A stretch of DNA of 64,000 nt, from contig JBAZWF010000001.1 in the NCBI GenBank assembly GCA_041660485.1, positions 474,224 through 538,223 on the forward strand. Reading direction: 5' to 3'. This stretch comes from Candidatus Pacearchaeota archaeon (lineage in GTDB: Archaea; Nanobdellota; Nanobdellia; Pacearchaeales; GW2011-AR1). The position numbers were made by a program, and so were the translations under genes. Below, one piece after another: positions 50,664 through 64,000 of this stretch; the first letter of the stretch is position 1, and each line of letters starts with the position of its first letter. The notes beneath the pieces were generated by a model. It was not told where the DNA came from, did not search any database, and saw only the letters and a list, made by a program, of their open reading frames with translations.

Positions 50664-50758
50664 ATAAATATAGGGAGTTGAGATTTATAAGGGTTTCAAT
50701 AATTAGGTAACATGCCCCCACGAGGAGTTTGACTAAAAGGTACTACTCCTTAAATCCC

Positions 50759-50923
50759 TCATAACCTAGTAGAAATAAAGAAACCAATTACTCCTCCACC
50801 AATTACTCCTAGAGTTCTATCTATACCTATCGCTCCAGCAATAAAATAACCAAGTATAGACCCAATTATAGTAAATAATACTGGGGGTGAAGTTACAGCT
50901 TGTAATTGTGCTTTTTTATTCAT
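50759..50923 (-). CDS. 54-aa 2-TM Gly-rich miniprotein (below ORF-track cutoff)
   Basis: My own translation: MNKKAQLQAVTSPPVLFTIIGSILGYFIAGAIGIDRTLGVIGGGVIGFFISTRL*. SD GGAGGG upstream; ATGA overlap with the stop of 50920..51132. Confidence 0.45.
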   Translation of the reverse strand: MNKKAQLQAVTSPPVLFTIIGSILGYFIAGAIGIDRTLGVIGGGVIGFFISTRL

Positions 50924-51132
50924 TTTTTCTCCCTCCAAATATATACCCCTATACCACCAAGGGTAGTACCAATAATAAAAGTGATTAATGGCAAAACTTC
51001 ATTTGAGGGGACTTTTTGAATAATGATGTAAGTAAAAGAAGCTAATACAAACACTATAACAAAGATGAGTGTCAATATTCTTAGCAAGTTTTTAACAGCT
51101 CTATCATTATAAAGAAATCCTTTCTTTTCCAT
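50920..51132 (-). CDS. 70-aa 2-TM miniprotein
   Basis: ORF track; two hydrophobic helices with basic termini. Confidence 0.5.
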   Translation of the reverse strand: MEKKGFLYNDRAVKNLLRILTLIFVIVFVLASFTYIIIQKVPSNEVLPLITFIIGTTLGGIGVYIWREKK

Positions 51133-51202
51133 GTTCTTGCATTGTTATTATACAATTATTCACCCTATTTATTTATGAAAACCTATTATAAAAAACTATC
51201 AT

Positions 51203-51901
51203 TTATGGGGATTCATCCCCTTTAAAGTACTTAATGGCAAATTCTCTTACAAATTTGTCTATTTCTAAGAAAATGGGGATTGCTTTAATTTTATCTTCTT
51301 CGCTCTTAACTGCTTGTGCTATAGGTCTAAATTCTTTTGAACTCTTAAACATTAATGGTTGTCCTTTTATTAATTCTTTTCTCGCTTGTTCTTCTGTAAT
51401 TTTTCCACTTGTAACTAATCCAGCTAATTCTATCAATTTCTCAACAGCATTTGGAACTTCCCATGTTGGAACATATTTATCTTTAGTTAGTTTAATTTTG
51501 TTATAGTGAGCGTAAGGATTTCTTAACTCGTCTCTTTTAGATTCCAAAAAGTTTAACTCTTCTGGAATTAAACAATTTAACGATTTACATTTAGAAATAG
51601 CGTTCCCAAAATTCATTTTTTCTATTTCTTCATCTTTTACACCTTCGATAAATAATTTTTCTTTTGTAATAACCTCTAAAAGTATACCACAAAGAACCAA
51701 TGAAGCATTATAAAATCCATAAGCAGTTAAAAAATAAGCCTGAAAATATAAGGCTCTTAAATGACTTTCCATAAATGGAAGTTCTTCGTTTGGTAATTTA
51801 TCGAGATTTTCATTCAACTTTACTTTTAAGTTTTCTAATTCTATCTCAATCAATTTATTCTTATCCTCAAAGAGTTTATTTGTCATCTCTTTCACCACCA
51901 T
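51203..51901 (-). CDS. HEPN-motif protein (putative RNase)
   Basis: 'RDELRNPYAHYNK' gives R-x4-H (RNxxAH variant) in a predicted all-helical protein. 26-nt overlap with the upstream gene. Confidence 0.5.
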   Translation of the reverse strand: MVVKEMTNKLFEDKNKLIEIELENLKVKLNENLDKLPNEELPFMESHLRALYFQAYFLTAYGFYNASLVLCGILLEVITKEKLFIEGVKDEEIEKMNFGNAISKCKSLNCLIPEELNFLESKRDELRNPYAHYNKIKLTKDKYVPTWEVPNAVEKLIELAGLVTSGKITEEQARKELIKGQPLMFKSSKEFRPIAQAVKSEEDKIKAIPIFLEIDKFVREFAIKYFKGDESP

Positions 51902-52202
51902 TTAACAATGCAAATATACAAGTCACCAAGACAACACATAGAATATATGCTCCAAATGTTTTAGCAGGTTCAGTTAATAAGTCAACCCACCAAGGTAGTA
52001 AATTAAATGCCGTTGACTCTCCAAATTTTTCTAATAAGCTAGGAGTTTTAAAAACTATATACAAAATTGATAGTATAAACCACTTAATTATTGGTAAAGA
52101 TAACAGTAGACCAAATGATAGTGTTAAAATTCTCCACCAATTATGTATAAATACTTCTAAAAGAAAATTCAATGATGTTTCTATTTCTTCCCAGTCAACC
52201 AT
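51876..52202 (-). CDS. 3-TM membrane protein
   Basis: 108-aa ORF; its start abuts the rhomboid stop (52203/52202). Confidence 0.5.
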   Translation of the reverse strand: MVDWEEIETSLNFLLEVFIHNWWRILTLSFGLLLSLPIIKWFILSILYIVFKTPSLLEKFGESTAFNLLPWWVDLLTEPAKTFGAYILCVVLVTCIFALLNGGERDDK

Positions 52203-53120
52203 TTAATCTCTCCATTTCTTATTTATAAAAATGAAATAACTACCGCAAACAATAATCCCATAAGCTATTCCTATATAGTGCATAAAGAAATCAATAAATG
52301 TTCCACTCTTAAACATAAGATTGAAAGATGGAAAAATAATTTTTGGTGTCATAAAGAAAAGTATGGGTGTAGTAATTAAAAAGAATGCCCATATAACTCC
52401 CCTCTTTGATTCTTTTGATATTTCAATTATAATATTTTTAATATTAGAAATTAAGGTTAATAGAAATATGAAAAATAAAATTGACACAAAAATAAGCAGA
52501 CTTGATAAGCCCTTGCTGTAATAAAAGACAAATAATAAAGCTACATATATCATACAAAATAAACTTGTTCTTACATCAAAACTAATCTTATTGTCTATTT
52601 TATTAAAATACATTGCCCAAAAGATTATTGTAAATCCTGCTAATGCAGATACTATGCCAGACGCTCCTGCTGAATGTTGTAGATTAGGAAGCCAGCTTAA
52701 GATGATTGGATATAATTTCACTTGGATAAATGAGCTTAGTATTGGTAATGAGATTACTAAGAATAAAAATAACCTGTAGAACTCCTTTTTCAAGTTCAAT
52801 TTATTAACAAATATTATTATTAATATTAAATACAAAAAATATCCAAATAGATTGGAACTTAAATGACTCCAACTATTATGAACAAATGATTGAGTAAGAT
52901 ATTGCCACCAAATAGGGTTTTTAATATCAAGTTGTAGTATATTCCTAATATTCAAAGGAAGAATCATAATTAGAGTCGTTAAAACAGGAAGTATTAACAT
53001 AAGCACAATATCTACCTTGTTTATTCCTTTAATTAATTCTAAGACTTGTGTCTTTAAGGAGGAGATGCTTAATTGTCTTTTCAGTTCTTCCTTAACATTT
53101 CTAAAGTTAAACTTCTGCAT
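52203..53120 (-). CDS. rhomboid-family intramembrane serine protease
   Basis: 'WWQYLTQSFVHNSWSHLSSNLFGYF' (W.xxT..F.H....H...N), 'HSAGASGIVSALAG' (GxSG) and 'MHYIGIAYG' (HxxGxxxG). All three signatures are present in a 6-7 TM protein. Confidence 0.75.
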   Translation of the reverse strand: MQKFNFRNVKEELKRQLSISSLKTQVLELIKGINKVDIVLMLILPVLTTLIMILPLNIRNILQLDIKNPIWWQYLTQSFVHNSWSHLSSNLFGYFLYLILIIIFVNKLNLKKEFYRLFLFLVISLPILSSFIQVKLYPIILSWLPNLQHSAGASGIVSALAGFTIIFWAMYFNKIDNKISFDVRTSLFCMIYVALLFVFYYSKGLSSLLIFVSILFFIFLLTLISNIKNIIIEISKESKRGVIWAFFLITTPILFFMTPKIIFPSFNLMFKSGTFIDFFMHYIGIAYGIIVCGSYFIFINKKWRD

Positions 53121-53157
53121 ATCTACCCTAATAAAATGATGCTATAAAGAATTTTCG

Positions 53158-54066
53158 TTATTTGTTTTCTTCAACTTTTTTCTTCAAATCTTCAAGTTCC
53201 TTTTTCAATTCCTCAAGTTCCTTCTCTTGTTTTGCTATATCTTCCTTACTAAAATAAGGTACATCTTTTAACGACTTCAATTTTGCTAGATGTTCTTCTT
53301 TATTCTTCTTCAAAATTTCAAGTTCAGTTATTCTTTTTACCATTGTTCTAAGCGCTCTATTGACCTCTATATCTGTTTTAACATTCAAACATAAAGACAA
53401 TACTTCAAATATTTCTAAGACCCTATCTTTGAACACCTCTTCTTTTAGTGGAAATTCTGCTTCCATTAGGTTAATAGATGGACCTTCAAAATAATATTTT
53501 GGTTTTCTTTTATCTCTTTCATTTAAACCTTGCTCTCTAATGTTATTTCCCAATTTTATTATCTCATCAACAATCGTATCGTTTATTTGATTAGAACTCC
53601 ATTCCTTCTCCAATTTGTAAGTGGGTGTTTGAGCATAATTAAATTCTTTAATTTTCCTTTGAATGTTTATTTTCCAATCATTATTGAGGTTTGTAAGTTT
53701 ATTAGAGATTTTATTTTTAACATCTTTATTCAATCCCCTCATTATTGTTTTGAATCTTTCATAAGACCTAAGATTGTTAAATGTCAAACCTAATCTACCT
53801 GTGCCTTCTAAGTTGCCTTCTCTACTTAATACATCAAAGAAAACATTAGGTTCATCTTTAGCTATTGCAACATCACGAGTTTCATCTTTTTGACAAAACA
53901 TAAGCCAATTCTCTTGACTTACAATATCAAAAATTTCTTCGTTGGTCCTAGAAGGAATAATCTCTTCATTCTTTATAGTCTCTTTTGCTAAGTTATACCA
54001 TTTAGCATACACTTTTTTGTCTACTAATTTTGTTCTATCTTTAGCCATTTTATTCTCCATCTTCAC
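53158..54066 (-). CDS. hypothetical protein with C-terminal coiled coil
   Basis: 302-aa ORF with the tail 'KQEKELEELKKELEDLKKKVEENK' and no recognisable catalytic motif. 17-nt overlap with the upstream nuclease gene. Confidence 0.55.
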   Translation of the reverse strand: MKMENKMAKDRTKLVDKKVYAKWYNLAKETIKNEEIIPSRTNEEIFDIVSQENWLMFCQKDETRDVAIAKDEPNVFFDVLSREGNLEGTGRLGLTFNNLRSYERFKTIMRGLNKDVKNKISNKLTNLNNDWKINIQRKIKEFNYAQTPTYKLEKEWSSNQINDTIVDEIIKLGNNIREQGLNERDKRKPKYYFEGPSINLMEAEFPLKEEVFKDRVLEIFEVLSLCLNVKTDIEVNRALRTMVKRITELEILKKNKEEHLAKLKSLKDVPYFSKEDIAKQEKELEELKKELEDLKKKVEENK

Positions 54067-54730
54067 TTTCTATTAAGCGACACCATTCACACTCTTCTTC
54101 TTTCCCACTATCTTTTGGACAAGGTCCACATAATAATTTGAGTGCTTTATTCCATACCTTTTCTGCATTTTTAACATTGATTTGAAGTTTTAATAATTTT
54201 GTATCAAAGATTACTTCGCCAGTAGTGGTAACTTCCTTAGGAATATAGAACAATAAAAAGCCATAGTCTTCTGTTTCATAACCATTCTTCCTTAATAAGA
54301 AGTTGTAAGTATCTAATTGCAATCTATAGTGTTCATGAGTATCTTCTTTAAGTGGGAAGCCACGAGTTTTATAATCCAAAACTATTAGTTTTTTTCCTTT
54401 CATTAAAATGTTATCAACAGCACCATGTAATATGTTTCCTTCTTCGTCCGCCCATGTGATACCTTTAAGGTTATTTCTCCATACTTTCAATAATTCTTTG
54501 TTATCAAATAGTTTACAATCCTTACAATCACCATTCTCTTTTAATTCAGGTGGTAGTTCATTCTTATCTCTAAACTTATCAAAGTGTGTTTTCAGTATGT
54601 TGTCCATTCCAGAGGGTAAGCTTGGAAATATAGAATCGGGTCTCTTCTTATGTTCATTTTGATGTAACCAAAAACATCTAGGGCATTCCTCCATAAGATT
54701 GAGTGATGATGGTGACAATTTGAATACCAT
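54050..54730 (-). CDS. Cas4/RecB-like PD-(D/E)XK nuclease with Fe-S cysteines
   Basis: 'EECPRCFW' (N-terminal Cys), 'HGAVDNIL...LIVLDYKTR' (D...DxK), 'YRLQLDTYNFLL' (QxxxY), 'CGPCPKDSGKEEECEWC' (C-terminal Cys cluster). The likely start is ATG 54730 ('MVFKLSPSSL'); the ORF track extends to 54796. Confidence 0.7.
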   Translation of the reverse strand: MVFKLSPSSLNLMEECPRCFWLHQNEHKKRPDSIFPSLPSGMDNILKTHFDKFRDKNELPPELKENGDCKDCKLFDNKELLKVWRNNLKGITWADEEGNILHGAVDNILMKGKKLIVLDYKTRGFPLKEDTHEHYRLQLDTYNFLLRKNGYETEDYGFLLFYIPKEVTTTGEVIFDTKLLKLQINVKNAEKVWNKALKLLCGPCPKDSGKEEECEWCRLIESEDGE

Positions 54731-54893
54731 TTTAGTCACTAGAATTAAGATAGAGAGGTTATAAAAGTCTTTGGATTTCACCCCATAGAAAACCATTAGT
54801 GAACTTATTATTCTTTCCTATAAGTCATTTATGGAAATAAATAAGAATGTTTATAAGATAAGTATACTCTAATTTTAATAAGAGAAACTTAAA

Positions 54894-55070: not shown

Positions 55071-55071
55071 A

Positions 55072-55384: not shown

Positions 55385-55567
55385 TTATCTTTTAGTTAGA
55401 ATTAAAGTGCTTCCATCTTTTTTTATTTTTAATTTTCCACAATCAAAGTCTTTGTATTTTTTATTAAGATAACTTCCCATATTTAAAACCTTATCAACAC
55501 TTTCATCAATCTCTTTTTGAGAAGATTTAAAACCTTTTTCAGTTTTAATGGTTAAAGTAATTTTCAT
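55385..55567 (-). CDS. small hypothetical protein
   Basis: 60-aa ORF. Confidence 0.35.
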   Translation of the reverse strand: MKITLTIKTEKGFKSSQKEIDESVDKVLNMGSYLNKKYKDFDCGKLKIKKDGSTLILTKR

Positions 55568-55877: not shown

Positions 55878-55910
55878 ATATGAATGAAGTTAAACTTTTG
55901 GGAGGGTTTA
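55878..55910 (+). repeat. 33-bp direct repeat, copy 1
   Basis: atatgaatgaagttaaacttttgggagggttta; 32/33 identical to 56037..56069. Confidence 0.8.
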
Positions 55911-56036
55911 ACAAAATTTCCTGCAAGAGAACTTAATTTATTATTTTAGTTAGTTTGTATGTATGATTCATATATGAGTATCCCATAACAAAACATTATG
56001 AGTATCATACATAGAGATGTCTATTTTGGTTCCTTA

Positions 56037-56069
56037 ATATGAATGAAGTTAAACTTTTGGGAGTGTTTA
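56037..56069 (+). repeat. 33-bp direct repeat, copy 2
   Basis: atatgaatgaagttaaacttttgggagtgttta; 159 bp downstream of copy 1 and 140 bp upstream of the REase ATG. Confidence 0.8.
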
Positions 56070-56208
56070 GAGAAAATCTTTTGAGAAGAGGTATTTTCAA
56101 ATAAACTAATGTTTATTTGTTTTCTAATTCTCCTATTGTGAAGTATCAAAAAACGATGGGGGTAGTTTATTTACAAAGAGTTATAAATATATGATTTATT
56201 GAATTATT

Positions 56209-57264
56209 ATGGAATGTGAGTTTAAGCAAGAAGACTTCAAGCGACTAATCTATTGGATTACTCTAAAGTTTAAAGAAGATGAATTCCATCACCAAGCAGC
56301 ATCTACTAAGAGCGATTTAATTGGTGGTTTCTTCGATAGATGGTTTAATAGGGCTTCAGAATTTATAATCTTTCGAGAACTATTAAAGAACAAAGACTAT
56401 GATGTTGTGATTGATAACTTCTTATATGGCCAAGATACAAAGAAGAATGCTCCTGATGTCATTGGATTGAAAGATAGGAAAGAGAATACTCTAGTTCAAT
56501 TTACACTTTTTAATAATGGAGATTGGGAAGTAATTCCTTCAATGCCGTTTATTGAAGTAAAAACTAATAGAGAGAAACAAAAGTTAATATCTATTGGAGA
56601 TACACAAATGAATAAAGACCATTATTATGTTATTGTGGAGTCTCACATTAGGGAAGATTATCTTATAACCCTTTTTGAAGATTCTGTTTTTAGTCAAGAC
56701 ACATTTAATTCTTTAAAAGTTAGTAAAGACTTTATAAAATCTGATGCTAACAATCAAATAATCACACCTAAACCCTTGCAAATTAAAAAGAATCTAGGTT
56801 CATTTAGACTTATTGGGATTTTTAGCGGTGAGGAAATAAAGAAGTATTGTTTATTAGTTGGAGTTGATGGAGAGGGAAATACACAAAAACCATACTATTT
56901 TGATACTATTGAGAAGACAAAACCCAATTCTAATGATGGAGAGGAAATAAAAGAAGGTTGTTATTCCTATGGTGGTGAGTACATTCCTTTTTGTATAGAA
57001 TTCGTTGATAAGAAATCAAAGGTTAGTCTAGTAAAGAGATTGAAAGGTCATATGGTTATTAATGTTGAAGGAACTATTAAGATAAATGGAATTGAAGCAA
57101 GTGATGGGTTCTATAAAGTGATGTTTAAAAAATTTGATAGAAGCTCTAAAAAGAAGGAATATATTGGAGATAAATATCTATTTGATTGTATCGCCGTAGA
57201 TAAAACAAACGAACTTATCTCCAAATTTGACGATTTAGTAAAGAAAGCAAAGTCTAAAAGATAG
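56209..57264 (+). CDS. putative type II restriction endonuclease (PD-(D/E)XK candidate)
   Basis: Position next to vsr and convergent with a C5-MTase. 'APDVIGL...(about 30 aa)...FIEVKT' fits PD...ExK. No other family assignment is possible by eye. Confidence 0.5.
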   Translation: MECEFKQEDFKRLIYWITLKFKEDEFHHQAASTKSDLIGGFFDRWFNRASEFIIFRELLKNKDYDVVIDNFLYGQDTKKNAPDVIGLKDRKENTLVQFTLFNNGDWEVIPSMPFIEVKTNREKQKLISIGDTQMNKDHYYVIVESHIREDYLITLFEDSVFSQDTFNSLKVSKDFIKSDANNQIITPKPLQIKKNLGSFRLIGIFSGEEIKKYCLLVGVDGEGNTQKPYYFDTIEKTKPNSNDGEEIKEGCYSYGGEYIPFCIEFVDKKSKVSLVKRLKGHMVINVEGTIKINGIEASDGFYKVMFKKFDRSSKKKEYIGDKYLFDCIAVDKTNELISKFDDLVKKAKSKR

Positions 57265-57281
57265 TTTACTCTACTTCTATT

Positions 57282-57629: not shown

Positions 57630-57634
57630 ATTGT

Positions 57635-58615
57635 TTAGCTTTCTGCGCATAATACCATCATCATATTATTAGCTATTCTTTCAATAACTGGAACAACTAC
57701 ACTATTTCCAGCTTGATGATATAATTTACTATCGGCTAATTGAGGAAGTTTAAACTCTTTTGGAAATCCCTGCAATGAAAAACATTCTTTAGGCGTGAGC
57801 TTCCTAATTCCTTTTCCATTTTTTATTATTGGAACATTGTGTCCTCCAAGCCCCATATTTGCTGTTAGTGTTGGACAAACTCCTTTCTTATTAGCTCTAA
57901 CATACTTTCTTCTCCATTGATAAACAGTCTCTTCGGAGTTAATGTCATTCTTTATTCTTTCATAAAGAGGTTTATCATTATAGTAGTATTTATCACCAGC
58001 TTCATTTGCTACATATTCTTTAAAACTTTTTGTTAATTTTATTTCATCTGGAAAATTAAAAGCTTCTGATTTAGATTTGTCTAAGAACCCCACAATAAAT
58101 ATTCTCTCTCTATTCTGCGGGACATTTCCATGAGTCATACTATTAAGAACTTCTGTTTTAACGTGGTATCCCAATTTTTCCAATGTTTCTTTTATAACCT
58201 TAAAGGTGTTTCCTTTGTCGTGTCCTTTTAGATTTTTTACATTCTCAAGAAGTATTGCTTTAGGTTTTTTAGCTTCTATAATTTCTGCAATTCTAAAGAA
58301 CAAATTGCCTCTTCCTTTTTCATCTTTAAATCCTTCCATATAACCTGCAACAGAAAAGGGCTGGCATGGGAATCCTCCAAGTAGAATATCAAAAATTGGA
58401 AGTGTGCTAAGGTCTAATTTATTTACATCTTCAGTGTTAAGCTTTGGTTCTGAAAAATTTAAGTCATAAGTCTCTTTACACGTTTTATCAAAATCATTTG
58501 AAAATACCGTAACGAAACCCGCTTTCTCAAATCCTAATCTTATACCGCCTACTCCTGCAAATAAGTCAATAGTTCTAAACTCTTTTTTCGCCATATTATT
58601 GTTATGTTTCACCAT
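57635..58615 (-). CDS. dcm: DNA (cytosine-5)-methyltransferase
   Basis: Motif I 'DLFAGVGG', IV 'GGFPCQPFS', VI 'LLENVKNL', VIII 'QNRERIFIVG', X 'AGNSVVVPV'. Confidence 0.95.
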   Translation of the reverse strand: MVKHNNNMAKKEFRTIDLFAGVGGIRLGFEKAGFVTVFSNDFDKTCKETYDLNFSEPKLNTEDVNKLDLSTLPIFDILLGGFPCQPFSVAGYMEGFKDEKGRGNLFFRIAEIIEAKKPKAILLENVKNLKGHDKGNTFKVIKETLEKLGYHVKTEVLNSMTHGNVPQNRERIFIVGFLDKSKSEAFNFPDEIKLTKSFKEYVANEAGDKYYYNDKPLYERIKNDINSEETVYQWRRKYVRANKKGVCPTLTANMGLGGHNVPIIKNGKGIRKLTPKECFSLQGFPKEFKLPQLADSKLYHQAGNSVVVPVIERIANNMMMVLCAES

Positions 58616-58618: not shown

Positions 58619-59146
58619 TTAATCTTTATTATAACGTAAATAATAGCCTCCTTTGTTCCTATATTTTTTATCTTTAGACCCAATAGGTCTACCTAATTTC
58701 TTACCTTCTTTCTTTCTTCTCTCTAATCCTAATTTGATTCGTTCTTTTAAAACTTCCCTTTCCATTTCTCCAAAACTGGCGAGTATAGTGAAGAAGAATT
58801 TACCCATAGGAGAGAAAGTATCTATATTCTGACTCGTAGCTATTAAACGAACCTCCTTATTTTTTAACTCTTCTAAGACTTGTAAAAGGTGTTGTGTGCT
58901 TCGCCCGAGTCTATCAAATTTCCAAACAATAATAGTGTCAAAACATTTATTTCTCATATCTTGCAACATAATATCTAATTGTGGCCTAGATGTCTTCACG
59001 CCAGAAACACCCTCATCTTTGTATACTTTAAAGATTTCATAACTTTCTCTTTCACAATAAGCTTTAAGTTCTAGTTCTTGATTTAAAGTAGTTTGGTCGT
59101 TAGTTGAAACTCTTGTATATATTGCACATATTTTTTTATTTTCCAT
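58619..59146 (-). CDS. small serine recombinase (resolvase/invertase catalytic domain)
   Basis: 'CAIYTRVSTNDQ', 'WKFDRLGRS', 'GEMEREVLKERIK'. Starts 3 nt after... that is, lies directly downstream of the MTase gene on the same strand. Confidence 0.85.
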   Translation of the reverse strand: MENKKICAIYTRVSTNDQTTLNQELELKAYCERESYEIFKVYKDEGVSGVKTSRPQLDIMLQDMRNKCFDTIIVWKFDRLGRSTQHLLQVLEELKNKEVRLIATSQNIDTFSPMGKFFFTILASFGEMEREVLKERIKLGLERRKKEGKKLGRPIGSKDKKYRNKGGYYLRYNKD

Positions 59147-59299
59147 TTACGAATCTCCTTCAATCAGTTTTAAATTAACAATAATTAATATTAATAACAA
59201 TGCTACAAACCACCAATACTCTTTAATTCTAAATGAGTTTATAGTTACAACTACCAAAACAATATCAACAACCAATATCAACTCTTTATTGTATTCCAT
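59147..59299 (-). CDS. small TM miniprotein
   Basis: ORF track 59147..59332. The internal ATG at 59299 ('MEYNKE') reduces the overlap with the upstream ORF. Two hydrophobic helices. Confidence 0.35.
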   Translation of the reverse strand: MEYNKELILVVDIVLVVVTINSFRIKEYWWFVALLLILIIVNLKLIEGDS

Positions 59300-59492
59300 T
59301 TTGTGATTTTGTATCTCCTTTATTTTTTTCAAGAAGCTTGAAAATTATTATTAATAAAATAATGATTAGTATAAGTGAAATCATTCCCCAAACTGCTAAA
59401 ACCAAAACAACATCACCTAAGTAAGTTTTTTGTAAACACTCAATTCCACTTATAGTATTGTTAATTGTTTGATTCATTTTTACCCCCATCAT
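59286..59492 (-). CDS. small TM miniprotein
   Basis: 68-aa ORF with one long hydrophobic helix. Confidence 0.35.
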   Translation of the reverse strand: MMGVKMNQTINNTISGIECLQKTYLGDVVLVLAVWGMISLILIIILLIIIFKLLEKNKGDTKSQNGIQ

Positions 59493-59498
59493 TATTTA

Positions 59499-59577
59499 CT
59501 TTGGAAGCACTTAGATATTCAGCAAGAGCGGTCCATCTCCCAACATGGCATATTATTTTATCCTCATGCTTCCAAAG
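59499..59577. repeat. 11-bp perfect inverted repeat ctttggaagca / tgcttccaaag with 57-nt relatively GC-richer spacer
   Basis: Read directly. It occupies the whole intergenic gap between 59492 and 59579. Confidence 0.7.
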
Positions 59578-59578
59578 A

Positions 59579-59782
59579 TTATTCTTTTTCATTTTCATCT
59601 CCTTTAGTTGATTGAATCATTCCAATAAAGTCACATTCTACATCTGCCATGTCCCCATATTTATCAATAATCTCAAAAGATGTTCCATTAAATTTTGGAA
59701 TTGTTGCAGTGTAATTGTAATTATTTTTTAAAACAATTTTACATCTTTTACCAATATATTTTTTTACAGACTCAACATCCAT
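59579..59782 (-). CDS. small hypothetical protein
   Basis: 67-aa ORF; 11-nt overlap with the upstream ORF. Confidence 0.4.
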   Translation of the reverse strand: MDVESVKKYIGKRCKIVLKNNYNYTATIPKFNGTSFEIIDKYGDMADVECDFIGMIQSTKGDENEKE

Positions 59783-60059
59783 TTTCTAATTCCTCCCTTT
59801 GTTTAATAGAGTAATTTTCTAATTTAGTTTGAGGATTTAGCCAAGTGAATTTATAACCATTAAAGTGACCATCAAAATCTATAAGACCCTCTACCTCGAC
59901 CTTATCTCCAATTTTGAATCTATTAGGTATGAACCTACAATAAATTCTAACTCCACTATCCAATATGAACTCACAACTATCTTGGTAAATTGATTTGTTT
60001 TTGGAAACAATTTCTTTAATTCTTCCAACTACAACATCTAACTCTCTTTCTTCAATCAT
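59772..60059 (-). CDS. small hypothetical protein
   Basis: 95-aa ORF within the operon. Confidence 0.4.
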   Translation of the reverse strand: MIEERELDVVVGRIKEIVSKNKSIYQDSCEFILDSGVRIYCRFIPNRFKIGDKVEVEGLIDFDGHFNGYKFTWLNPQTKLENYSIKQREELENGC

Positions 60060-60286
60060 CTTAATATGACCTCCTTAGTTTTATACAGATTATACTTAGT
60101 GTCAAAATCAATCATATTTGATGAAAATCCACCTAAACTTATACGTATAATTAGTAATGAAGAAAAATCATTTATACACCTTATACTCTTTATACACCTA
60201 TCTTTACGTATCTTATCTATAAAGAAGCCTAAGTAAGAAGAAGTGTATAATTGGTATAATCTGTAATACCTATTAATTTTCATCAT
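60056..60286 (-). CDS. small hypothetical protein (doubtful)
   Basis: 76-aa ORF bridging the primase stop and the next gene. Odd composition. Confidence 0.25.
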   Translation of the reverse strand: MMKINRYYRLYQLYTSSYLGFFIDKIRKDRCIKSIRCINDFSSLLIIRISLGGFSSNMIDFDTKYNLYKTKEVILR

Positions 60287-62444
60287 TTTTTACACCCTCC
60301 TTTAATTTTATACCAATTCTAAATCTTTGAGAGGAAGTCCCAATAGGAATTACTTTTGATTCATAACCCATATTTGTGAGTATTCTCCCCACCATATTAT
60401 CGCTCATTTCTTTGTGACCATTCGTTTCTAAGAATAATTTATACTCTTCATAAAAGTCTCCAAATTGTACTCTAAACTCCTTCCCAATGTCACATTTAGC
60501 CCTAATAAAATGACTAATGGGGTTACTTCGTTCTTTGTATCTTTCTTCTCTTTGTTCAATACTTCCATCATTAACAAATTCACCTCTTTGTAAAAGTTCT
60601 CTTAAGATTTTTGGTATTTGTTTACAAAAATTACTAAATTCTTGCTCAGGTACATCCTTTATGATGTCTTTCTTTTCATTAAATTGGTTGGGAAAATCAA
60701 CTATAGTCCATCTTCTATAGAATCCTTTAGAATTATCAGTAGACTCTGGCAGTGCGTTTGTAGCAATGATTGGTGTAGCATATAAGTGGGCATTCCAAGA
60801 ATCTTTGCCTTTAAATTCAATAGGGAGTAAATCATCGCCAGACAATGCTTTTAACAAAGCTGTCCTGCTAAAAATACTCTTATCTATTTCTCCAATAATA
60901 GCTACTAATTTTTTATAAAGTTTAGAGGTTTCAAATTGTCCTTTAGTTAATCTTTCAATAGTGGTAGATGTTGCGTTTTCTTCACCAACAAATTTTTCTA
61001 TTAATCTTAAATATGAACCTTTGCCATTTAGACCACTTCCAATTAAACAAAATATTCTATGTATTGGAATATAGGTTAGAGTACAATAGGCCATAATTTC
61101 CTTTAATGTTGTTACATACTCTTTTCCAACCCATTCTTCAAATATTCTATCTAAATTTGGTGTTTCTTCACTCTCTCCTATTTGCCAAGGAAGAGGATTA
61201 GTTATAAAATATTCTGGAGTTGCTGGAAAATAATTCCCATTTTCTATATCAACAATAGTGTCGTAAAATTGAACCCAAACTTTTTTTGGTTCCTTTGGAG
61301 TATTTAACCTTCCTACTCTCTTTAATGCCTCAAGGATTTTCCCCTTAATTTTTGAATCAATAGTTCCACTCCATTTTAAGCCCCTATCAATTTCATTCAT
61401 TACATCGACGTCATCAACAATCTCCCATTTAAAATTAGCATGATTCCAAAACCACCAAAGGTGATGCTTGTCATAAAAGTAGGGTTGGTCCATTAAGAAT
61501 ATTTTAGCCATAAGTTGATAGTCAACTTGTATTATCCCTTGCGGGCTTGATTTGAAAATAGAGGAGTATCTACCATCATCACTTAAACCAGCTTTCTCAA
61601 TTAATTTGTGTATTGCTTCTTTTCTTGAGATACTTTCTAATTCAGCTACAAAATCAATAATGTTTCCACTCTTACCACATGAACTTGCAAAACATTTAAA
61701 CCAACCTAAAGCATCGTTCAAACTTAAACTTGGGTGTTTGTCATTATGAAAAGGACAATGATAATTATTTGTTTCTTTTCCTTTTATAACTCCATATTCA
61801 TTTGCTAAATCAGTTATCTTTATTTTTTCTTTAATCTTATCAGTTATGCTTGTGGTCCTTTTAGAATCAATTTTTTTCTCAATTACTTCCTCTTTCCCAT
61901 ATTTTTCATCTTCTACATCTATAATAAGCCCACCTTTATTTTTAATTAAATCCTTTATGGTTCCATATTTATAATGTGGTGAATAAGGAACTGCTATTAA
62001 ATGAGAACCACATAAACTAGTATCAACAAATTCCCAACTATCTTTAGGGAAGTAATACTTTAATATTGATTCCTTCTTATTTTTGTTAGCTTCTTTATTT
62101 AGAAATAAATGTATGTGGGGACATTTTCCTTTATGGTCAAATAAGTCATAACCTACATTCTCGCTTTCCAATTTAGCAATCGTTTCATCAATCCATTTAT
62201 ATCTCTCTTCTTTAGTACATACTTTTCCCCTATTCTCTTTAATTTTGCTTTCCTCGTCAATTTCTCCAACCAATTCATTTTCATTAATCTCAATTAGATT
62301 AATTTGAGGGTCATATTTTTCATCTCTATAATCCTTCTTCCATTTAGATTTGTCAATATTCTCTTTCTTATCACAAACCTTATACCTCTTGCCTTCATGT
62401 GATTTAAGCCATTCTCTATGTTTATTTTGTATTTGTTCTTCCAT
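60273..62444 (-). CDS. replicative primase-helicase: AEP/prim-pol-like N-terminus + CHC2 zinc finger + D5/P4-type SF3 helicase
   Basis: 'CPFHNDKHPSLSLN....FKCFASSCGKSGNIIDF' (zf-CHC2). 'IGSGLNGKGS' (Walker A), 'VAIIGEID' (Walker B) and 'FYRRWTIVDF' (P4-primase C-terminal pattern). N-terminal 'GEIDEE', 'CPHIHLF' and 'FVDTS' are candidate AEP motifs. Confidence 0.85.
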   Translation of the reverse strand: MEEQIQNKHREWLKSHEGKRYKVCDKKENIDKSKWKKDYRDEKYDPQINLIEINENELVGEIDEESKIKENRGKVCTKEERYKWIDETIAKLESENVGYDLFDHKGKCPHIHLFLNKEANKNKKESILKYYFPKDSWEFVDTSLCGSHLIAVPYSPHYKYGTIKDLIKNKGGLIIDVEDEKYGKEEVIEKKIDSKRTTSITDKIKEKIKITDLANEYGVIKGKETNNYHCPFHNDKHPSLSLNDALGWFKCFASSCGKSGNIIDFVAELESISRKEAIHKLIEKAGLSDDGRYSSIFKSSPQGIIQVDYQLMAKIFLMDQPYFYDKHHLWWFWNHANFKWEIVDDVDVMNEIDRGLKWSGTIDSKIKGKILEALKRVGRLNTPKEPKKVWVQFYDTIVDIENGNYFPATPEYFITNPLPWQIGESEETPNLDRIFEEWVGKEYVTTLKEIMAYCTLTYIPIHRIFCLIGSGLNGKGSYLRLIEKFVGEENATSTTIERLTKGQFETSKLYKKLVAIIGEIDKSIFSRTALLKALSGDDLLPIEFKGKDSWNAHLYATPIIATNALPESTDNSKGFYRRWTIVDFPNQFNEKKDIIKDVPEQEFSNFCKQIPKILRELLQRGEFVNDGSIEQREERYKERSNPISHFIRAKCDIGKEFRVQFGDFYEEYKLFLETNGHKEMSDNMVGRILTNMGYESKVIPIGTSSQRFRIGIKLKEGVKNDEN

Positions 62445-62501: not shown

Positions 62502-62804
62502 CTACCTTTTTTCAATGAGCAGTACTTTTCCTTTTTCTTTGGTTTCTTCCAAGTTAAAAACTTTAATCAATTTTCTTTTGAACTTGCCACCGCCATACCA
62601 AGTAGCTCCAAAAAGTTGTTTTTTCATTTCACCAAAGTTAAAAGCAGCACCATCTACTTCGTCCAAAAATTCTTTTATCTTCTTTTCAATTTCTGGCCTA
62701 AAATAAGGTACTCTTATTTTTTTCTCTTTGTTTGTCATTTTGTTAAGTAATGGTTGAATAACTTCCTCAGTTGAGCCTATCTCTTTAGAGTCTTTAGTAT
62801 TCAT
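62502..62804 (-). CDS. hypothetical protein
   Basis: 100-aa ORF; ATGA coupling to the upstream miniprotein. Confidence 0.45.
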   Translation of the reverse strand: MNTKDSKEIGSTEEVIQPLLNKMTNKEKKIRVPYFRPEIEKKIKEFLDEVDGAAFNFGEMKKQLFGATWYGGGKFKRKLIKVFNLEETKEKGKVLLIEKR

Positions 62805-62980
62805 TTTTGTACTTGAATATCTTTCTCCAAGAGATAGCGACGAATTGCCCTAATTCCAGGACCATTAACAATGTTCTTTATTTCGCTCAAATTCTTACCT
62901 TGTTTTCCTAATTCACAACATTGTTGTTTAATTTCATCGCAATAGGTTCTTCCTTTTCGTTTTGAAAGTTGCTCTTCCAT
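62801..62980 (-). CDS. 59-aa HTH-like miniprotein (below ORF-track cutoff)
   Basis: My own translation: MEEQLSKRKGRTYCDEIKQQCCELGKQGKNLSEIKNIVNGPGIRAIRRYLLEKDIQVQK*. Confidence 0.4.
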   Translation of the reverse strand: MEEQLSKRKGRTYCDEIKQQCCELGKQGKNLSEIKNIVNGPGIRAIRRYLLEKDIQVQK

Positions 62981-62992
62981 TTTTATGTAGGT

Positions 62993-63349
62993 TTATTTTA
63001 CCTCCCCCTCATTTAGTTTATTTTGACTTTCGTCAATATGATATTTGTCTGCTGTTACAAAATCAGGTGATTTTATATCTCCAAAAATTACCGAAGAATC
63101 AACACCCAAGGATGTTGCAATTTTTACCTTTAATTCTAAAGTGCAATCCCAAATACCCCAAGAAATACAATACCAATATTGTTTAGTCAAACCCAAACTA
63201 TTGTAGAAATCAGCTTCACTCATTCCTTTAGACTTTATTAGTGTCCTAATTCTATCCTTAAGTGTGGGATTTTTAGTCTTATAGATACGTTTGTATACCT
63301 TTCTATTTAAAAAAAATGTCTTACCTTGTGAATTATCTTGTTCCGCCAT
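62993..63349 (-). CDS. XRE/Cro-type HTH regulator
   Basis: 'IRTLIKSKGMSEADFYNSLGLTKQYWYCISWG....LELKVKIATSLGVDSSVIFG' fits the HTH_3 pattern. Confidence 0.55.
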   Translation of the reverse strand: MAEQDNSQGKTFFLNRKVYKRIYKTKNPTLKDRIRTLIKSKGMSEADFYNSLGLTKQYWYCISWGIWDCTLELKVKIATSLGVDSSVIFGDIKSPDFVTADKYHIDESQNKLNEGEVK

Positions 63350-63444
63350 TTTCCACCTCGTTTTGATACCTAATTATAATCTGGTCACATATCGCAATTT
63401 GCTCTTCAATTATCCCAATCATCTTTTGATAGTTCTCCTCTTTT

Positions 63445-63624
63445 TCATTTCCCATCTCTCTGTCCCCCATTTCTTTTAGTCAATCTTTCAATTTTTTCCA
63501 TAATCGCATTTCTCATAAATTCTGCCATAGAAAGCATTTCTTCAATTGAAGCTCTTTCTAGTTCTTTTTTTTGCTCTTCCGATAACGAAACAATCACCTT
63601 TTTTGTGTATATTTTTGGTTTCAT
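63445..63624 (-). CDS. 59-aa ribbon-helix-helix (CopG/Arc-like) protein (below ORF-track cutoff)
   Basis: My own translation: MKPKIYTKKVIVSLSEEQKKELERASIEEMLSMAEFMRNAIMEKIERLTKRNGGQRDGK*. Reads as a beta-strand 'VIVSL' followed by two helices. Confidence 0.5.
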   Translation of the reverse strand: MKPKIYTKKVIVSLSEEQKKELERASIEEMLSMAEFMRNAIMEKIERLTKRNGGQRDGK

Positions 63625-63764
63625 CTTTTTTTAACCTCTTAAGGTCTATACCTTAAAGATATATACATTAAATGTATGTACTATATAAATGTTTCTATAT
63701 GTAGGTATATAGAGTACATACCTTTAAGCGACATATTTATAAAGATAGATACCCTCAATAGACC

Positions 63765-64000
63765 ATGACAATAAAAAGAAAGAGTGGAGAGAAGAGTGAA
63801 AACGTCCTTAGCAAATTTGACTTAATGATTTTAAAAGTTCTCAATGAATCTAAAGATGATGTTGGAATTTTGGAACTCGCTCGTAGATTAAGTATAGGAC
63901 ATAGAGGAATTAAAAGACACATAATTAGATTAAATGATTATGGCCTTATCACAAAGAACCCAACTGGCAAGAACAAAATGATTGTACTAAAGATAACTGA
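63765..64000 (+). CDS. wHTH (MarR/ArsR-like) regulator, 5' fragment running off the window
   Basis: My own translation from ATG 63765: MTIKRKSGEKSENVLSKFDLMILKVLNESKDDVGILELARRLSIGHRGIKRHIIRLNDYGLITKNPTGKNKMIVLKIT... Divergent from the RHH gene. Confidence 0.5.
   Translation, partial: MTIKRKSGEKSENVLSKFDLMILKVLNESKDDVGILELARRLSIGHRGIKRHIIRLNDYGLITKNPTGKNKMIVLKIT

What the first reader, a model, noticed from the sequence alone, without database searches (positions are those of the whole stretch)
50700..64000. Integrated plasmid/provirus-like element with serine (not tyrosine) recombinase, extending past the window
From about 50.7 kb onward the gene content switches from recognisable host genes (pyrD, SNase, PAP2-like) to a mobile-element repertoire. 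This includes a 723-aa primase-helicase, RHH + XRE + wHTH regulators, a small serine recombinase, an R-M/Vsr module, a Cas4-like nuclease and more than 12 orphan miniproteins. Many of these are translationally coupled through ATGA or short overlaps. No tRNA gene or obvious att duplication is visible at the left border, and the right border is outside the window. Mobile elements of DPANN-like archaea are poorly characterised, and use of a serine recombinase for archaeal element integration is uncommon.
Basis: partly seen in the sequence, partly recalled or inferred. Interest (0 to 1): 0.65.

Follow-up and report, generated by a model that had tools for sequence, protein, structure and literature searches.

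The report
Integrated plasmid-like element, tyrosine integrase
The stretch is a real 14.6-kb mobile element inserted next to a ribosomal-protein operon of a tiny DPANN archaeon, but it most probably integrates with an ordinary tyrosine integrase lying 53 bases beyond the window's end, while its small serine recombinase is an internal accessory module.

Summary
Observation confirmed, interpretation only partly. The window comes from a Candidatus Pacearchaeota MAG. A 100 %-identical public contig extends it by 2.6 kb. That extension shows, in order, a wHTH gene cut by the window end, a 401-aa tyrosine-recombinase gene, and then host rpS9-rpL13-rpL18e. In related genomes rpS9 directly abuts the DUF1003 gene (window 48.5-49.0 kb), so the block is an insertion. 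The element is bounded by an imperfect direct repeat with an identical 10-bp core, GCCCCCACGA, at 50714-50723 and at extended coordinate 65317-65326, giving about 14.6 kb. The core equals the 3' end of tRNA-Arg(GCG). Related elements sit behind an intact tRNA-Arg or similar pseudo-sites, and their arm sequences are conserved. One complete relative has the same att pair but no serine recombinase. The 175-aa serine recombinase is therefore not the integrase. It has no recognisable HTH, belongs to a tight DPANN family (73-85 % identity), and always co-occurs with a conserved ~95-nt palindrome-bearing site (56097-56187). Cargo, mostly restriction-modification systems, lies between the gene and that site. 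I read this pair as a res-like resolution or module-exchange system, which is inferred and untested. The element itself is a new member of a known kind, an archaeal cryptic integrated element.

The parts
50703..50713 (-). Host-side flank (B') of the distal att site. It reads TTAGGTAACAT on the + strand, ATGTTACCTAA on the - strand.
   Evidence: In relatives the same sequence follows the core without interruption. L009 has CTCGTGGCATGTTACC in the 43-nt gap between rpS9 and DUF1003. L046 has TCGTGGGGGCGTGTTACCTAAGG. It also follows the distal core of the L086 element.
50714..50723 (-). Distal att core GCCCCCACGA (TCGTGGGGGC on the - strand). The only other copy is at extended coordinate 65317-65326, between rpS9 and the integrase gene.
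   Evidence: Only two copies, even allowing 2 mismatches, in 49-66 kb. One copy in the window against 0.18 expected when 1 mismatch is allowed. A composition-aware shuffle test reaches it in 15 of 1000 shuffles. The core equals the last bases of tRNA-Arg(GCG) genes in related metagenome contigs.
50724..50760 (-). Element-side arm (P) of the distal att. It contains CTAAAAGGTAC (50733-50743), which is an inverted copy of CTTAAAGGTAC in the integrase-proximal arm.
   Evidence: The arm is conserved with the distal ends of the L086, L118 and L136 elements: TTTAAGG-N-GTACCTTT(T/A)AG-N9-TCC-core (alignment A3).
50759..53120 (-). Distal cargo: small membrane proteins (50759-50923 and 50920-51132), a 232-aa protein (51203-51901), a 108-aa membrane protein (51876-52202), and a rhomboid-like 305-aa membrane protein (52203-53120).
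   Evidence: ORFs. Rhomboid domain E 3e-5. The 232-aa protein hits PHROG 1305 'DNA binding protein' at E 1e-5. None has a homologue in the 80 rpS9 loci of relatives.
53158..54066 (-). 302-aa protein of unknown function; element cargo.
   Evidence: A 66 %-identical homologue lies inside the independently bounded L086 element. No family hit.
54050..54796 (-). PD-(D/E)XK / Cas4-like nuclease.
   Evidence: Pfam PDDEXK_1 E 2e-12, Cas4 models E ~1e-8, PHROG 31195 E 3e-38. Homologues at 61-71 % identity also lie a few kb downstream of rpS9 in more distant relatives.
55385..55567 (-). 60-aa backbone ORF, conserved in related elements downstream of the ~95-nt site.
   Evidence: 53 % identical to L089:11845-12024 and 39 % identical to L221:14440-14622.
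55878..56069 (.). Two 33-nt direct repeats, 97 % identical (55878-55910 and 56037-56069), in the 640-nt non-coding gap.
   Evidence: Family D4. Not conserved in relatives. Function not tested; iterons or an operator are possible.
56097..56187 (-). Conserved ~95-nt non-coding site. It holds the perfect palindrome CAAATAAAC-ATTA-GTTTATTTG (56098-56119) and a second inverted half-site pair with a C-rich spacer. It is the candidate recombination (res-like) site of the serine recombinase.
   Evidence: The palindrome is unique in the window against 0.02 expected. The site is 71-84 % identical in L089, L221, L217/218 and L219/220, and is detectable in L223-226 (blastn, alignment A5, nhmmer). Among more than 220 loci it occurs only where the HTH-less serine recombinase occurs.
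56209..58615 (.). Type II restriction-modification cassette: putative REase (56209-57264 +), Vsr (57282-57629 +), Dcm C5-methylase (57635-58615 -).
   Evidence: Dcm E 4e-91 and Vsr E 4e-17. PADLOC MTase_II E 6e-122 and Vsr. The REase assignment is by position and a PD...EVK motif only, with no family or PDB match.
58619..59146 (-). Small serine recombinase, 175 aa: catalytic domain plus E-helix plus GRP arm, with no C-terminal HTH.
   Evidence: Resolvase domain E 1e-44 over residues 8-150. Conserved R12, S14, D78, R79 and R82, and the protein ends 21 aa after the GRP motif (A2). The family's 120 best clusters are 73-85 % identical and mostly 169-180 aa. It is the only protein shared by all six element types examined.
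59147..60286 (-). Five to six overlapping small ORFs (61, 68, 45, 67, 95 and 76 aa) between the primase and the recombinase.
   Evidence: Coordinates. The 76-aa and 68-aa ORFs have weak homologues at the same place in L004 and L005.
60273..62444 (-). 723-aa primase-helicase; the replication protein.
   Evidence: CHC2 zinc ribbon E 2e-18, DUF5906 E 5e-17, TIGR01613 P4-type primase C-terminus E 3e-39, PHROG DNA primase E 3e-51. 68 % identical to P0002 on L004 and 65 % to P0003 on L005, in the same gene order.
62502..63624 (-). Regulatory and early module: RHH (63445-63624), 45 aa (63333-63470), XRE-like 118 aa (62993-63349), 59 aa (62801-62980), 100 aa (62502-62804).
   Evidence: RHH_1 E 5e-5. 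PHROG transcriptional regulator or repressor E ~2e-4. Same order, with 50-75 % identity, in L086 and L089.
63765..64000 (+). Divergent wHTH regulator (90 aa, HVO_A0114 family), cut by the window end; the full gene is 63765-64037. Beyond the window lie the tyrosine integrase (64053-65258, -), the proximal att arm and core (65259-65326), and then host rpS9 (65353-65760, -), rpL13 and rpL18e.
   Evidence: Contig L001 is 100 % identical to window 57699-64000 and adds 2602 bases. HVO_A0114 E 1e-6.

Best explanation
What it is. Window 50714 to extended coordinate 65326 (about 14.6 kb) is an integrated, plasmid-like cryptic element of a Candidatus Pacearchaeota genome.

Integration. It was inserted by its own tyrosine recombinase, a 401-aa protein encoded 59 nt from the right junction and just outside the window. 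The target is a tRNA-Arg(GCG)-3'-end-like pseudo-site that lies directly downstream of rpS9. Recombination within the shared core TCGTGGGGGC left an imperfect direct repeat at both ends. The integrase gene stays intact on integration, the arrangement I recall for pNOB8-type integrases and unlike the SSV type, whose gene is split by integration.

Other modules:
- A regulatory module of wHTH, RHH and an XRE-like protein.
- A primase-helicase with co-translated miniproteins, which presumably replicates the excised circle.
- A conserved small serine recombinase with no recognisable HTH, plus a cognate ~95-nt site bearing a palindrome. I infer that this pair acts as a res-like system that resolves multimers and/or recombines different co-resident elements.
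- Cargo placed between that gene and its site. Here it is a type II Dcm/Vsr/REase cassette.
- Further cargo: a Cas4-like nuclease, a 302-aa protein, a rhomboid-like protein and small membrane proteins.

Shown: the insertion relative to relatives, the att duplication, its identity with the tRNA-Arg 3' end, the conserved arms, the tyrosine-recombinase fold, the recurring architecture, and the co-occurrence of the serine recombinase with its site.

Inferred: that the integrase is catalytically active, that the element replicates episomally, and what the serine recombinase does.
For: 1. Extension. L001 is 100 % identical over 6302 bases and adds int, rpS9, rpL13 and rpL18e.

2. Empty site. Eighty rpS9 loci from related species were compared. 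In the closest ones (L006, L008-L013, L020, L040, L063) rpS9 is followed within 0-1.6 kb (0-160 bases in six of the ten) by the DUF1003 homologue. After that come SNase, pyrD, DUF192, HAD ... Orc1 and PolD, in the window's order and orientation. None of the genes in 49010-53120 or 55000-64000 is present in those loci.

3. att sites. The core GCCCCCACGA occurs only at 50714 and 65317. The two halves are contiguous in L009 and L046.

4. The core is the 3' end of tRNA-Arg(GCG). An intact tRNA-Arg sits directly in front of the homologous integrase in L092-94. The proximal arm CTTAAAGGTACATA..AAAGTATATATACTA is shared with L086 and L089. The distal arm is shared with L086, L118 and L136. L086 is a second complete element, 7.8 kb, with both att sites.

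5. The integrase is a tyrosine recombinase, with R279, H302 and Y312 invariant across the 20 aligned homologues.

6. The order int, regulators, replication protein, serine recombinase, cargo recurs in L089, L217, L219, L221 and L223.

7. The serine recombinase and the ~95-nt site are linked.
Against: - The integrase family carries Asn where the first catalytic Arg is expected (N176 aligns with lambda Int R212). Its activity is therefore inferred from genetics, not from an intact canonical pocket.
- Outside the 10-bp core the flanking repeat is imperfect, and the core alone gives only p ~0.015.
- I could look for no excised circle or attP junction, because no reads were available.
- Three genes (49010-50663) lie between the distal att and DUF1003 and are also absent from relatives, so the insertion history at this spot is more complex than a single event.
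- Cas4-like homologues occur near rpS9 in more distant relatives, so part of the cargo may be exchanged with chromosomes.
- The role assigned to the serine recombinase rests on co-occurrence only, and the protein has no recognisable domain for reading the site.
Confidence: 0.85

Rival explanations
1. The small serine recombinase is the integrase or excisionase of the element, and the tyrosine recombinase is incidental or inactive.
For: - The serine recombinase keeps its catalytic residues: R12, S14, D78, R79 and R82.
- It is a conserved partner of the primase in L004, L005 and L089.
- The tyrosine recombinase family lacks the canonical Arg-I.
Against: - The gene lies 6.2 kb from the right att and 7.9 kb from the left att, and has no recognisable DNA-binding domain.
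- Its only conserved associated site (56097-56187) is single and internal, and is unrelated to the att core.
- L086 has the same att pair and arms but no serine recombinase. L092-94 likewise have none.
- The att arms co-vary with the tyrosine integrase, which always sits next to the core.
- Elements with this serine recombinase but other integrase families (L219, L221) lack the TCGTGGGGGC core.
Confidence: 0.03
2. The element is a provirus of an unrecognised small archaeal virus rather than a plasmid. The small membrane proteins at the distal end, and perhaps the 302-aa and 232-aa proteins, would be virion components.
For: - Several small hydrophobic proteins (50759-51132 and 51876-52202) and unassigned proteins sit in one co-directional block.
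- As I recall, small archaeal viruses such as fuselloviruses and pleolipoviruses have structural proteins that sequence searches do not recognise.
- The Cas4-like protein hits PHROG 31195 strongly.
Against: - No capsid, portal, terminase or packaging ATPase hit in Pfam, PHROGs or NCBIfam.
- The integrase family, the att pattern, the serine recombinase family and the primase have no relatives among 2.9 million IMG/VR contigs.
- The distal cargo is not conserved among related elements, so it does not behave like a virion module.
Confidence: 0.12
3. The block is a decayed or composite genomic island that is no longer mobile. It would have been built by successive insertions at a hotspot downstream of rpS9, for example 55.6-65.3 kb as one element, with 50.7-55.6 kb and 49.0-50.7 kb as older remnants.
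For: - The total insert relative to relatives is 16.3 kb, reaching back to 49005 and so beyond the distal att.
- The rpS9 downstream site is occupied by different sequences in other genomes such as L008, L010, L011, L020, L046 and L113.
- The repeat is imperfect outside the core.
- The integrase carries Asn at the Arg-I position.
Against: - All backbone genes are full length, unlike L086, whose primase is truncated.
- The distal arm next to 50714 is the conserved element-type arm, so 50.7-65.3 kb is bounded as one unit.
- The 302-aa gene at 53.2-54.1 kb is also carried inside the L086 element.
- No further core copies occur inside the block.
Confidence: 0.15

Closest known systems
Cryptic integrated elements (CIE) of archaea, as catalogued for Thaumarchaeota (Krupovic et al. 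2019, PMC6563490)
   Same: Small elements (median 17 kb in that study) defined by a XerC/D-like tyrosine integrase. They integrate in tRNA genes, intergenic regions or gene 3' ends and have short att repeats. Their replication proteins are of the primase plus SF3 helicase type. RHH and wHTH regulators and restriction-modification cargo are common, and no virion genes are present.
   Different: The host phylum is different (DPANN, Pacearchaeota). The integrase family carries Asn at the Arg-I position and a ~70-residue C-terminal helix. The target is a tRNA-Arg-3'-like pseudo-site behind rpS9. The element also carries a conserved serine recombinase with no recognisable HTH plus a cognate site. 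That paper uses the term 'serine recombinase' only once, in a passage I did not read.
pT26-2 family integrative plasmids of Thermococcales and Methanococcales (Badel et al. 2019, PMC6972569)
   Same: An archaeal plasmid family found both free and integrated at tRNA genes. It has a conserved core and variable cargo.
   Different: From my own knowledge, pT26-2 integrases are SSV-type and their gene is split on integration. Here the integrase gene stays intact next to att. I compared no pT26-2 core protein with the window directly, and none of the family or profile scans (Pfam, PHROGs, NCBIfam) pointed to that plasmid family. I saw that paper only as a search hit and did not read it in detail.
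Resolvase/res multimer-resolution systems of bacterial plasmids and Tn3-family transposons (gamma-delta/Tn3 resolvase, Sin, beta recombinase)
   Same: A small serine recombinase with the full catalytic set (R, S, D, R, R) and the GRP arm. There is one copy per replicon of a ~100-bp site made of several inverted half-site pairs with different spacings, lying close to the recombinase gene.
   Different: The protein has no C-terminal HTH, the domain that reads res half-sites in all characterised resolvases. The site is downstream of the gene, not upstream, and is separated from it by 0-5 kb of cargo. No biochemical evidence exists.
Lambda-type tRNA-targeting tyrosine integrases (lambda Int, P4 Int, archaeal XerA-like and pNOB8-type integrases)
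   Same: A two-domain fold. Box II Arg, His-III and the Tyr nucleophile are conserved. The gene is adjacent to attP, and the core is identical to a tRNA 3' end, so a target tRNA would be regenerated.
   Different: Arg-I is replaced by Asn and His-II by Lys. Sequence similarity to any curated model is below the curated thresholds: Pfam 25.6 bits against 27.1, and the XerA model 31 bits against 220.

Membership tests
Integrated mobile element (site-specific integration) | Absent from the same locus in related genomes (empty site) | tested here: met
   rpS9 abuts the DUF1003 homologue in L006, L009, L012, L013, L040 and L063. The split core and flank are contiguous in L009 and L046.
Integrated mobile element (site-specific integration) | Direct repeat (att) at both ends | tested here: met
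   An identical 10-bp core within a ~28-nt imperfect repeat at 50714 and 65317. It reaches the observed score in 15 of 1000 shuffles. The arms are conserved with other elements.
Integrated mobile element (site-specific integration) | Excised circular form or restored attB in the population | not testable with these tools
   No read data. The metagenome pattern scan was truncated at 120 loci and showed no attP junction.
Tyrosine recombinase (integrase) superfamily | Two-domain fold of the lambda Int / Cre / Xer type | tested here: met
   AF2 model with pLDDT 82. Its 47 PDB matches at E<=1e-3 are lambda Int, XerA, Cre/Tre, XerH, IntI, Tn1549 Int and P2 Int.
Tyrosine recombinase (integrase) superfamily | Catalytic residues R-K-H-R-H/W-Y | tested here: inconclusive
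   R279, H302 and Y312 are invariant. His-II is Lys276. Arg-I is Asn176 by HMMER and hhalign alignments to IntI4 and lambda Int. The position of the Lys on the beta-hairpin is uncertain, though K211, R212 and R214 in the hairpin loop are invariant.
Tyrosine recombinase (integrase) superfamily | Score above curated family threshold | tested here: not met
   Pfam Phage_integrase scores 25.6 bits against a cut-off of 27.1. NCBIfam XerA scores 30.9 against 220. PHROG_1 integrase gives E 5e-12, but that library has no curated cut-off.
Small serine recombinase (resolvase/invertase) | N-terminal catalytic domain with the Ser nucleophile and the conserved Arg/Asp residues | tested here: met
   Resolvase domain E 1e-44. 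R12, S14, D78, R79 and R82 are conserved.
Small serine recombinase (resolvase/invertase) | C-terminal helix-turn-helix DNA-binding domain | tested here: not met
   The protein ends 21 residues after the GRP motif, and there is no HTH hit even at E<=1. The L004 and L005 relatives keep an HTH_7-like tail. Most of the family is 169-180 aa.
Resolvase/res multimer-resolution system | A single cognate multi-subsite DNA site per replicon, co-inherited with the recombinase | tested here: met
   Site 56097-56187 holds two inverted half-site pairs and occurs once per element. It is present in all six element types that carry this recombinase and in none of the more than 200 other loci.
Resolvase/res multimer-resolution system | Recombinase binds and recombines the site | not testable with these tools
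   Needs biochemistry or genetics.
Large serine integrase (phiC31 / Bxb1 / CcrAB type) | Recombinase domain plus zinc-ribbon C-terminal region, typically several hundred residues (from memory) | tested here: not met
   The protein is 175 aa and has the Resolvase domain only. Matches to the CcrB and XisF models are confined to the catalytic domain.
Provirus | Recognisable virion or packaging genes | tested here: not met
   None found in Pfam, PHROGs or NCBIfam. No IMG/VR relatives of the integrase, the primase or the serine recombinase.

The most novel reading that the evidence does not exclude
The ~170-175-aa serine recombinase with no recognisable HTH and its ~95-nt palindrome-bearing site form a self-contained, horizontally spreading recombination module of DPANN archaeal plasmids. 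The module would do more than resolve multimers. It would serve as a docking and exchange point for defence cassettes. In the six element types examined, the DNA between the gene and its site holds a type II C5 system, type II N4/N6 systems, a type I system, a single gene, or nothing. The recombinase would have to recognise DNA without a canonical DNA-binding domain, either through its basic GRP tail or through a partner protein.
Probability: 0.2. Interest if true: 0.7.

Novelty: new member of a known kind. Interest (0 to 1): 0.4.

Why it matters
Mobile elements of DPANN archaea are hardly described. This locus gives a fully bounded example with att sites, a target, an integrase family and a replication module.

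It also shows that the element belongs to a widespread family:
- The integrase search returned 725 homologues at E<=0.001.
- The core-plus-flank motif that the element targets occurs in at least 120 metagenome contigs.

The family targets tRNA-Arg(GCG) 3' ends and look-alike pseudo-sites.

The finding corrects a tempting misreading, that a serine recombinase acts as the archaeal integrase. That misreading arose only because the window ended 53 bases before the real integrase gene.

Two by-products may deserve follow-up:
- An integrase family that seems to work with Asn in place of the first catalytic arginine.
- A very conserved serine recombinase with no recognisable HTH, paired with a specific DNA site that brackets restriction-modification cargo.

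Tried and rejected
- Long exact direct repeats between the right junction and the rest of the window: the longest is 16 nt, AT-rich and uninformative.
- tRNA genes: none in the window or in L001.
- Rfam at gathering threshold: nothing in the window, and nothing downstream of rpS9 in relatives.
- rpoN or rpS2 as the expected downstream neighbours of rpS9: no motif found. The real ancestral neighbour turned out to be the DUF1003 gene.
- Close relatives of the primase in IMG/VR and in GTDB genomes: none.
- IMG/VR scans for the att pattern, the integrase family, the ~95-nt site palindrome and the serine recombinase family: nothing, or only resolvases at <=36 % identity.
- A second copy of the ~95-nt site, or nucleotide conservation upstream of the serine recombinase gene: none.
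- Function of the 351-aa, 302-aa and 232-aa proteins: no convincing hit. Pfam, NCBIfam, PHROGs and PADLOC were run on all three, and PDB sequences on the 351-aa protein only.
- Breaks in the Logan contigs, inside the Dcm gene at 57699-57729 and inside the 43627-44379 gene: I considered them as possible junction evidence and rejected that. They are more likely de Bruijn graph branch points in multi-copy gene families.
- Two rows in alignments A3 and A4 (L193 and L124) were given wrong coordinates and should be ignored. The corresponding sequences are shown correctly.

Full report
ORIGIN AND CONTEXT

The window has about 28 % G+C and no tRNA gene. It encodes archaeal replication proteins: Orc1/Cdc6 at 35722-36930 and the PolD small subunit at 34109-35692. 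The 723-aa primase is identical to a protein that NCBI names 'phage/plasmid primase, P4 family [Candidatus Pacearchaeota archaeon]', which lies on an 856,651-bp contig.

CHECKING THE OBSERVATION

Family scans confirm each named gene:
- primase-helicase, 60273-62444(-)
- a 175-aa Resolvase-domain protein, 58619-59146(-)
- Dcm, 57635-58615(-)
- Vsr, 57282-57629(+)
- an unassigned 351-aa protein with a PD...EVK motif, 56209-57264(+)
- a PD-(D/E)XK/Cas4-like nuclease, 54050-54796(-)
- RHH, 63445-63624(-)
- a weakly XRE-like 118-aa protein, 62993-63349(-)
- many small overlapping ORFs

To the left lie pyrD, SNase, DUF1003 and PAP2.

WHAT LIES BEYOND THE WINDOW

An exact-protein look-up returned a Logan contig, L001 (8904 bases). 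It is 100 % identical to window 57699-64000 and continues for 2602 bases. I use 'extended' coordinates equal to 66603 minus the L001 position. The 90-aa wHTH gene (63765-64037, +) is the gene cut by the window end. It is followed by a 401-aa gene (64053-65258, -), a 94-nt gap, and then rpS9 (65353-65760, -), rpL13 and rpL18e.

The 401-aa protein is a tyrosine recombinase:
- Pfam Phage_integrase, E 1e-5 (25.6 bits, just under the 27.1-bit cut-off).
- NCBIfam archaeal XerA model, E 2e-7 over residues 51-312.
- PHROG_1 'integrase', E 5e-12.
- An AlphaFold2 model (pLDDT 82) has 47 PDB matches at E<=1e-3. They are lambda Int, XerA, Cre, XerH, IntI, Tn1549 Int and P2 Int.

In an alignment of 20 homologues, box II Arg (R279), His-III (H302) and the tyrosine (Y312) are invariant. 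The position of the first catalytic Arg is occupied by a nearly invariant Asn (N176 aligns with lambda Int R212), and His-II is Lys. This is a genuine caveat about the catalytic pocket.

EMPTY-SITE ANALYSIS

I fetched 80 loci around rpS9 from species-representative genomes of Pacearchaeota, Woesearchaeota and Nanoarchaeota. Their ORFs were compared with those of the extended window.

In the closest relatives (L006, L008-L013, L020, L040, L063), rpL18e-rpL13-rpS9 is followed within 0-1.6 kb by the homologue of window 48549-49004 (DUF1003). The gap is 0-160 bases in six of these ten loci. After it come SNase, pyrD, DUF192, HAD, the gene 43627-44379, 40172-40789, 38854-39687 ... Orc1 and PolD. 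This is exactly the window's order and orientation read leftwards from rpS9.

None of the genes from 49010-53120 or 55000-64000 occurs in any of these loci. About 16.3 kb is therefore inserted in this genome.

THE att SITES

The right junction shares the G+C-rich 10-mer GCCCCCACGA with exactly one place, 50714-50723.
- There is no other copy, even allowing two mismatches, in 49-66 kb.
- The window has one copy against 0.18 expected when one mismatch is allowed.
- A composition-aware shuffle test reaches the observed match in 15 of 1000 trials.

Read on the minus strand, the strand of rpS9 and int, the junctions are:

rpS9-stop-GAAGATAATTTTAGTTCAAGTTCTTT-TCGTGGGGGC-GTAGACCTTAAAGGTACATAGCC...(59 nt from the core to the ATG of int)

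...TTTAAGGAGTAGTACCTTTTAGTCAAACTCC-TCGTGGGGGC-ATGTTACCTAATTATTG...(PAP2)

Relatives carry the uninterrupted site right after rpS9. L046 has TTTTTAGTTAAAAGAT-TCGTGGGGGC-GTGTTACCTAAGG. L009 has ATCTCGTGGCATGTTACC inside a 43-nt gap between rpS9 and DUF1003.

WHAT THE CORE IS

In a number of them the core is the last ten bases, before the discriminator, of a tRNA-Arg(GCG) gene found by ARAGORN.

Homologues of the integrase (67-72 % identical) show the same arrangement:
- In L092-94 an intact tRNA-Arg(GCG) is followed directly by the core, the arm TTGAACCTAAAGGTTCAC, and int.
- In L086-88 and L089/90 the core is followed by (G/A)T(G/A)TATCTTAAAGGTACATA(T/G)CC..AAAGTATATATACTA and int, nearly identical to the window.

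L086, from another Pacearchaeota MAG, is a second complete element. Its proximal core lies after the SRP54 gene. Its distal copy, 7.8 kb away, is preceded by TTTAGTGGAGTAGTACCTTTTCGCTCTGCTCC and followed by ATGTTACCTAAG. That is the same distal arm and flank as in the window.

In a reconstructed attP, the distal arm's GTACCTTT(T/A)AG and the proximal arm's CTTAAAGGTAC are inverted copies flanking the core.

I conclude that the element spans 50714-65326. It uses a tRNA-Arg-3'-like pseudo-site behind rpS9, and the tyrosine recombinase is its integrase. The integrase gene remains intact next to att.

THE SERINE RECOMBINASE

It is internal, not terminal. Its catalytic residues are intact, but the protein stops 21 residues after the GRP motif, and no HTH is detectable. 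Two more distant homologues, in L004 and L005 (45 % identity), keep an HTH_7-like tail.

The HTH-less form is a large and very tight family. The 120 best clusters are 73-85 % identical, most are 169-180 aa, and they come from DPANN MAGs.

In seven sampled contexts the recombinase follows the replication module of an element that carries a tyrosine integrase: the window, L089, L217/218, L219/220, L221 and L223-226. The replication proteins are unrelated among these elements: a CHC2 primase-helicase, PrimPol plus a D5-like helicase, AEP-TOTE plus a 595-aa protein, a 482-aa MTBMA_p00010-like protein, and an 815-aa protein. The integrases are 43-70 % identical or not detectably related. The serine recombinase is the only protein shared by all of them, at 76-85 % identity.

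A ~95-nt non-coding sequence (window 56097-56187) is conserved together with it, at 71-84 % nucleotide identity. It contains:
- the perfect palindrome CAAATAAAC-ATTA-GTTTATTTG, unique in the window against 0.02 expected;
- a second inverted half-site pair with a C-rich spacer.

There is one copy per element. Nucleotide conservation is restricted to the recombinase ORF and this site.

The DNA between the gene and the site varies:
- nothing in L223, where the site overlaps the gene's 3' end;
- one 174-aa gene in L217;
- a type II Dcm/Vsr/REase cassette in the window;
- two N4/N6 methylases plus a ~710-aa protein in L089 and L221;
- a type I HsdMSR system in L219.

The simplest reading is a resolvase with its res-like site, that is, multimer resolution of the episomal form. 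The site may also serve as a point of inter-element recombination, which would explain the mosaic structure. How a protein without a recognisable DNA-binding domain would read the half-sites is unexplained. This part is inference from co-occurrence.

NATURE OF THE ELEMENT

No virion or packaging gene is recognisable. Neither the integrase, the primase, the serine recombinase family nor the att or site motifs occur in IMG/VR. I therefore call it a plasmid-like cryptic integrated element. A provirus of an unknown type cannot be excluded.

The closest published description is the class of 'cryptic integrated elements' of Thaumarchaeota. These have a tyrosine integrase, primase/SF3-helicase replication proteins, RHH and wHTH regulators, R-M cargo, and tRNA, intergenic or gene-3' targets (PMC6563490). 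Text searches found no description of this DPANN family.

VERDICT

It is an integrated element of a DPANN archaeon, but integration is by a tyrosine recombinase that lies 53 bases beyond the window, not by the serine recombinase.

The element is a new member of a known kind. The serine recombinase/site module and the Asn-for-Arg integrase family are the parts that might repay further work. Interest 0.4.

Noticed in passing
window 43627-44379 (+): A second serine-recombinase-like gene: 250 aa, with Resolvase plus a partial Recombinase domain and no zinc ribbon. It overlaps the HAD hydrolase gene 42956-43630 by 4 nt. Homologues lie in the same rpS9-Orc1 neighbourhood in 32 of 80 related genomes, often next to the HAD gene. 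This looks like a vertically inherited, possibly domesticated, recombinase rather than part of a mobile element.
   Followed up: partly
metagenome loci L095-L214; window 50703-50723: The core plus flank TCGTGGGGGC-RTGTTACCTAAGGTTAA occurs in at least 120 metagenome contigs, far more often than behind intact tRNA-Arg genes. It is followed by at least four conserved ~90-nt sequence families and is often preceded by the palindromes TTAATCCTTAGGATTAA or TTAACCTAAGGTTAA. One family ends in ..GTGCCCCCGC, which could pair with the GGGGGC of the core. These may be tandem att remnants, small non-autonomous elements or unknown RNA genes. Rfam finds nothing there.
   Followed up: partly
window 49010-50663 (-): Three genes lie between the distal att site and the DUF1003 gene: a 202-aa membrane protein, a 106-aa protein and a PAP2-like protein. 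They are also absent from this position in all relatives. They may be lineage-specific genes or the remnant of an older insertion at the same hotspot.
   Followed up: no
window 55878-55910 and 56037-56069: Two 33-nt direct repeats, 97 % identical and 159 nt apart, lie in the 640-nt non-coding gap next to the conserved ~95-nt site. They are not conserved in related elements. They could be iterons or an operator.
   Followed up: no
extended coordinates 64053-65258 (L001:1345-2550): The integrase family returned 725 homologues at E<=0.001, and the 120 listed are 50-72 % identical. It has a nearly invariant Asn where tyrosine recombinases carry the first catalytic Arg, Lys in place of His-II, and a ~70-residue C-terminal helix. 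Even so, its elements are bounded by att duplications.
   Followed up: partly
window 54050-54796; loci L032, L043, L050, L052, L077: The Cas4-like nuclease has homologues at 61-71 % identity a few kb downstream of rpS9 in more distant relatives whose rpS9 is only ~58-61 % identical. There it sits among genes conserved between those genomes. The gene may move between elements and chromosomes at this hotspot.
   Followed up: partly
window 44019 and 57699-57729: The Logan assembly of SRR18595301 breaks this region into contigs exactly inside the 250-aa recombinase gene and inside the Dcm gene. These are probably graph branch points caused by many related copies of these genes in the sample.
   Followed up: no
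window 1-64000: No tRNA gene and no Rfam family at gathering threshold in 64 kb. Two very large ORFs are present: 10425-15470 (1681 aa) and 29230-34170 (1646 aa). The second is probably the PolD large subunit, given its position next to the small-subunit gene.
   Followed up: no
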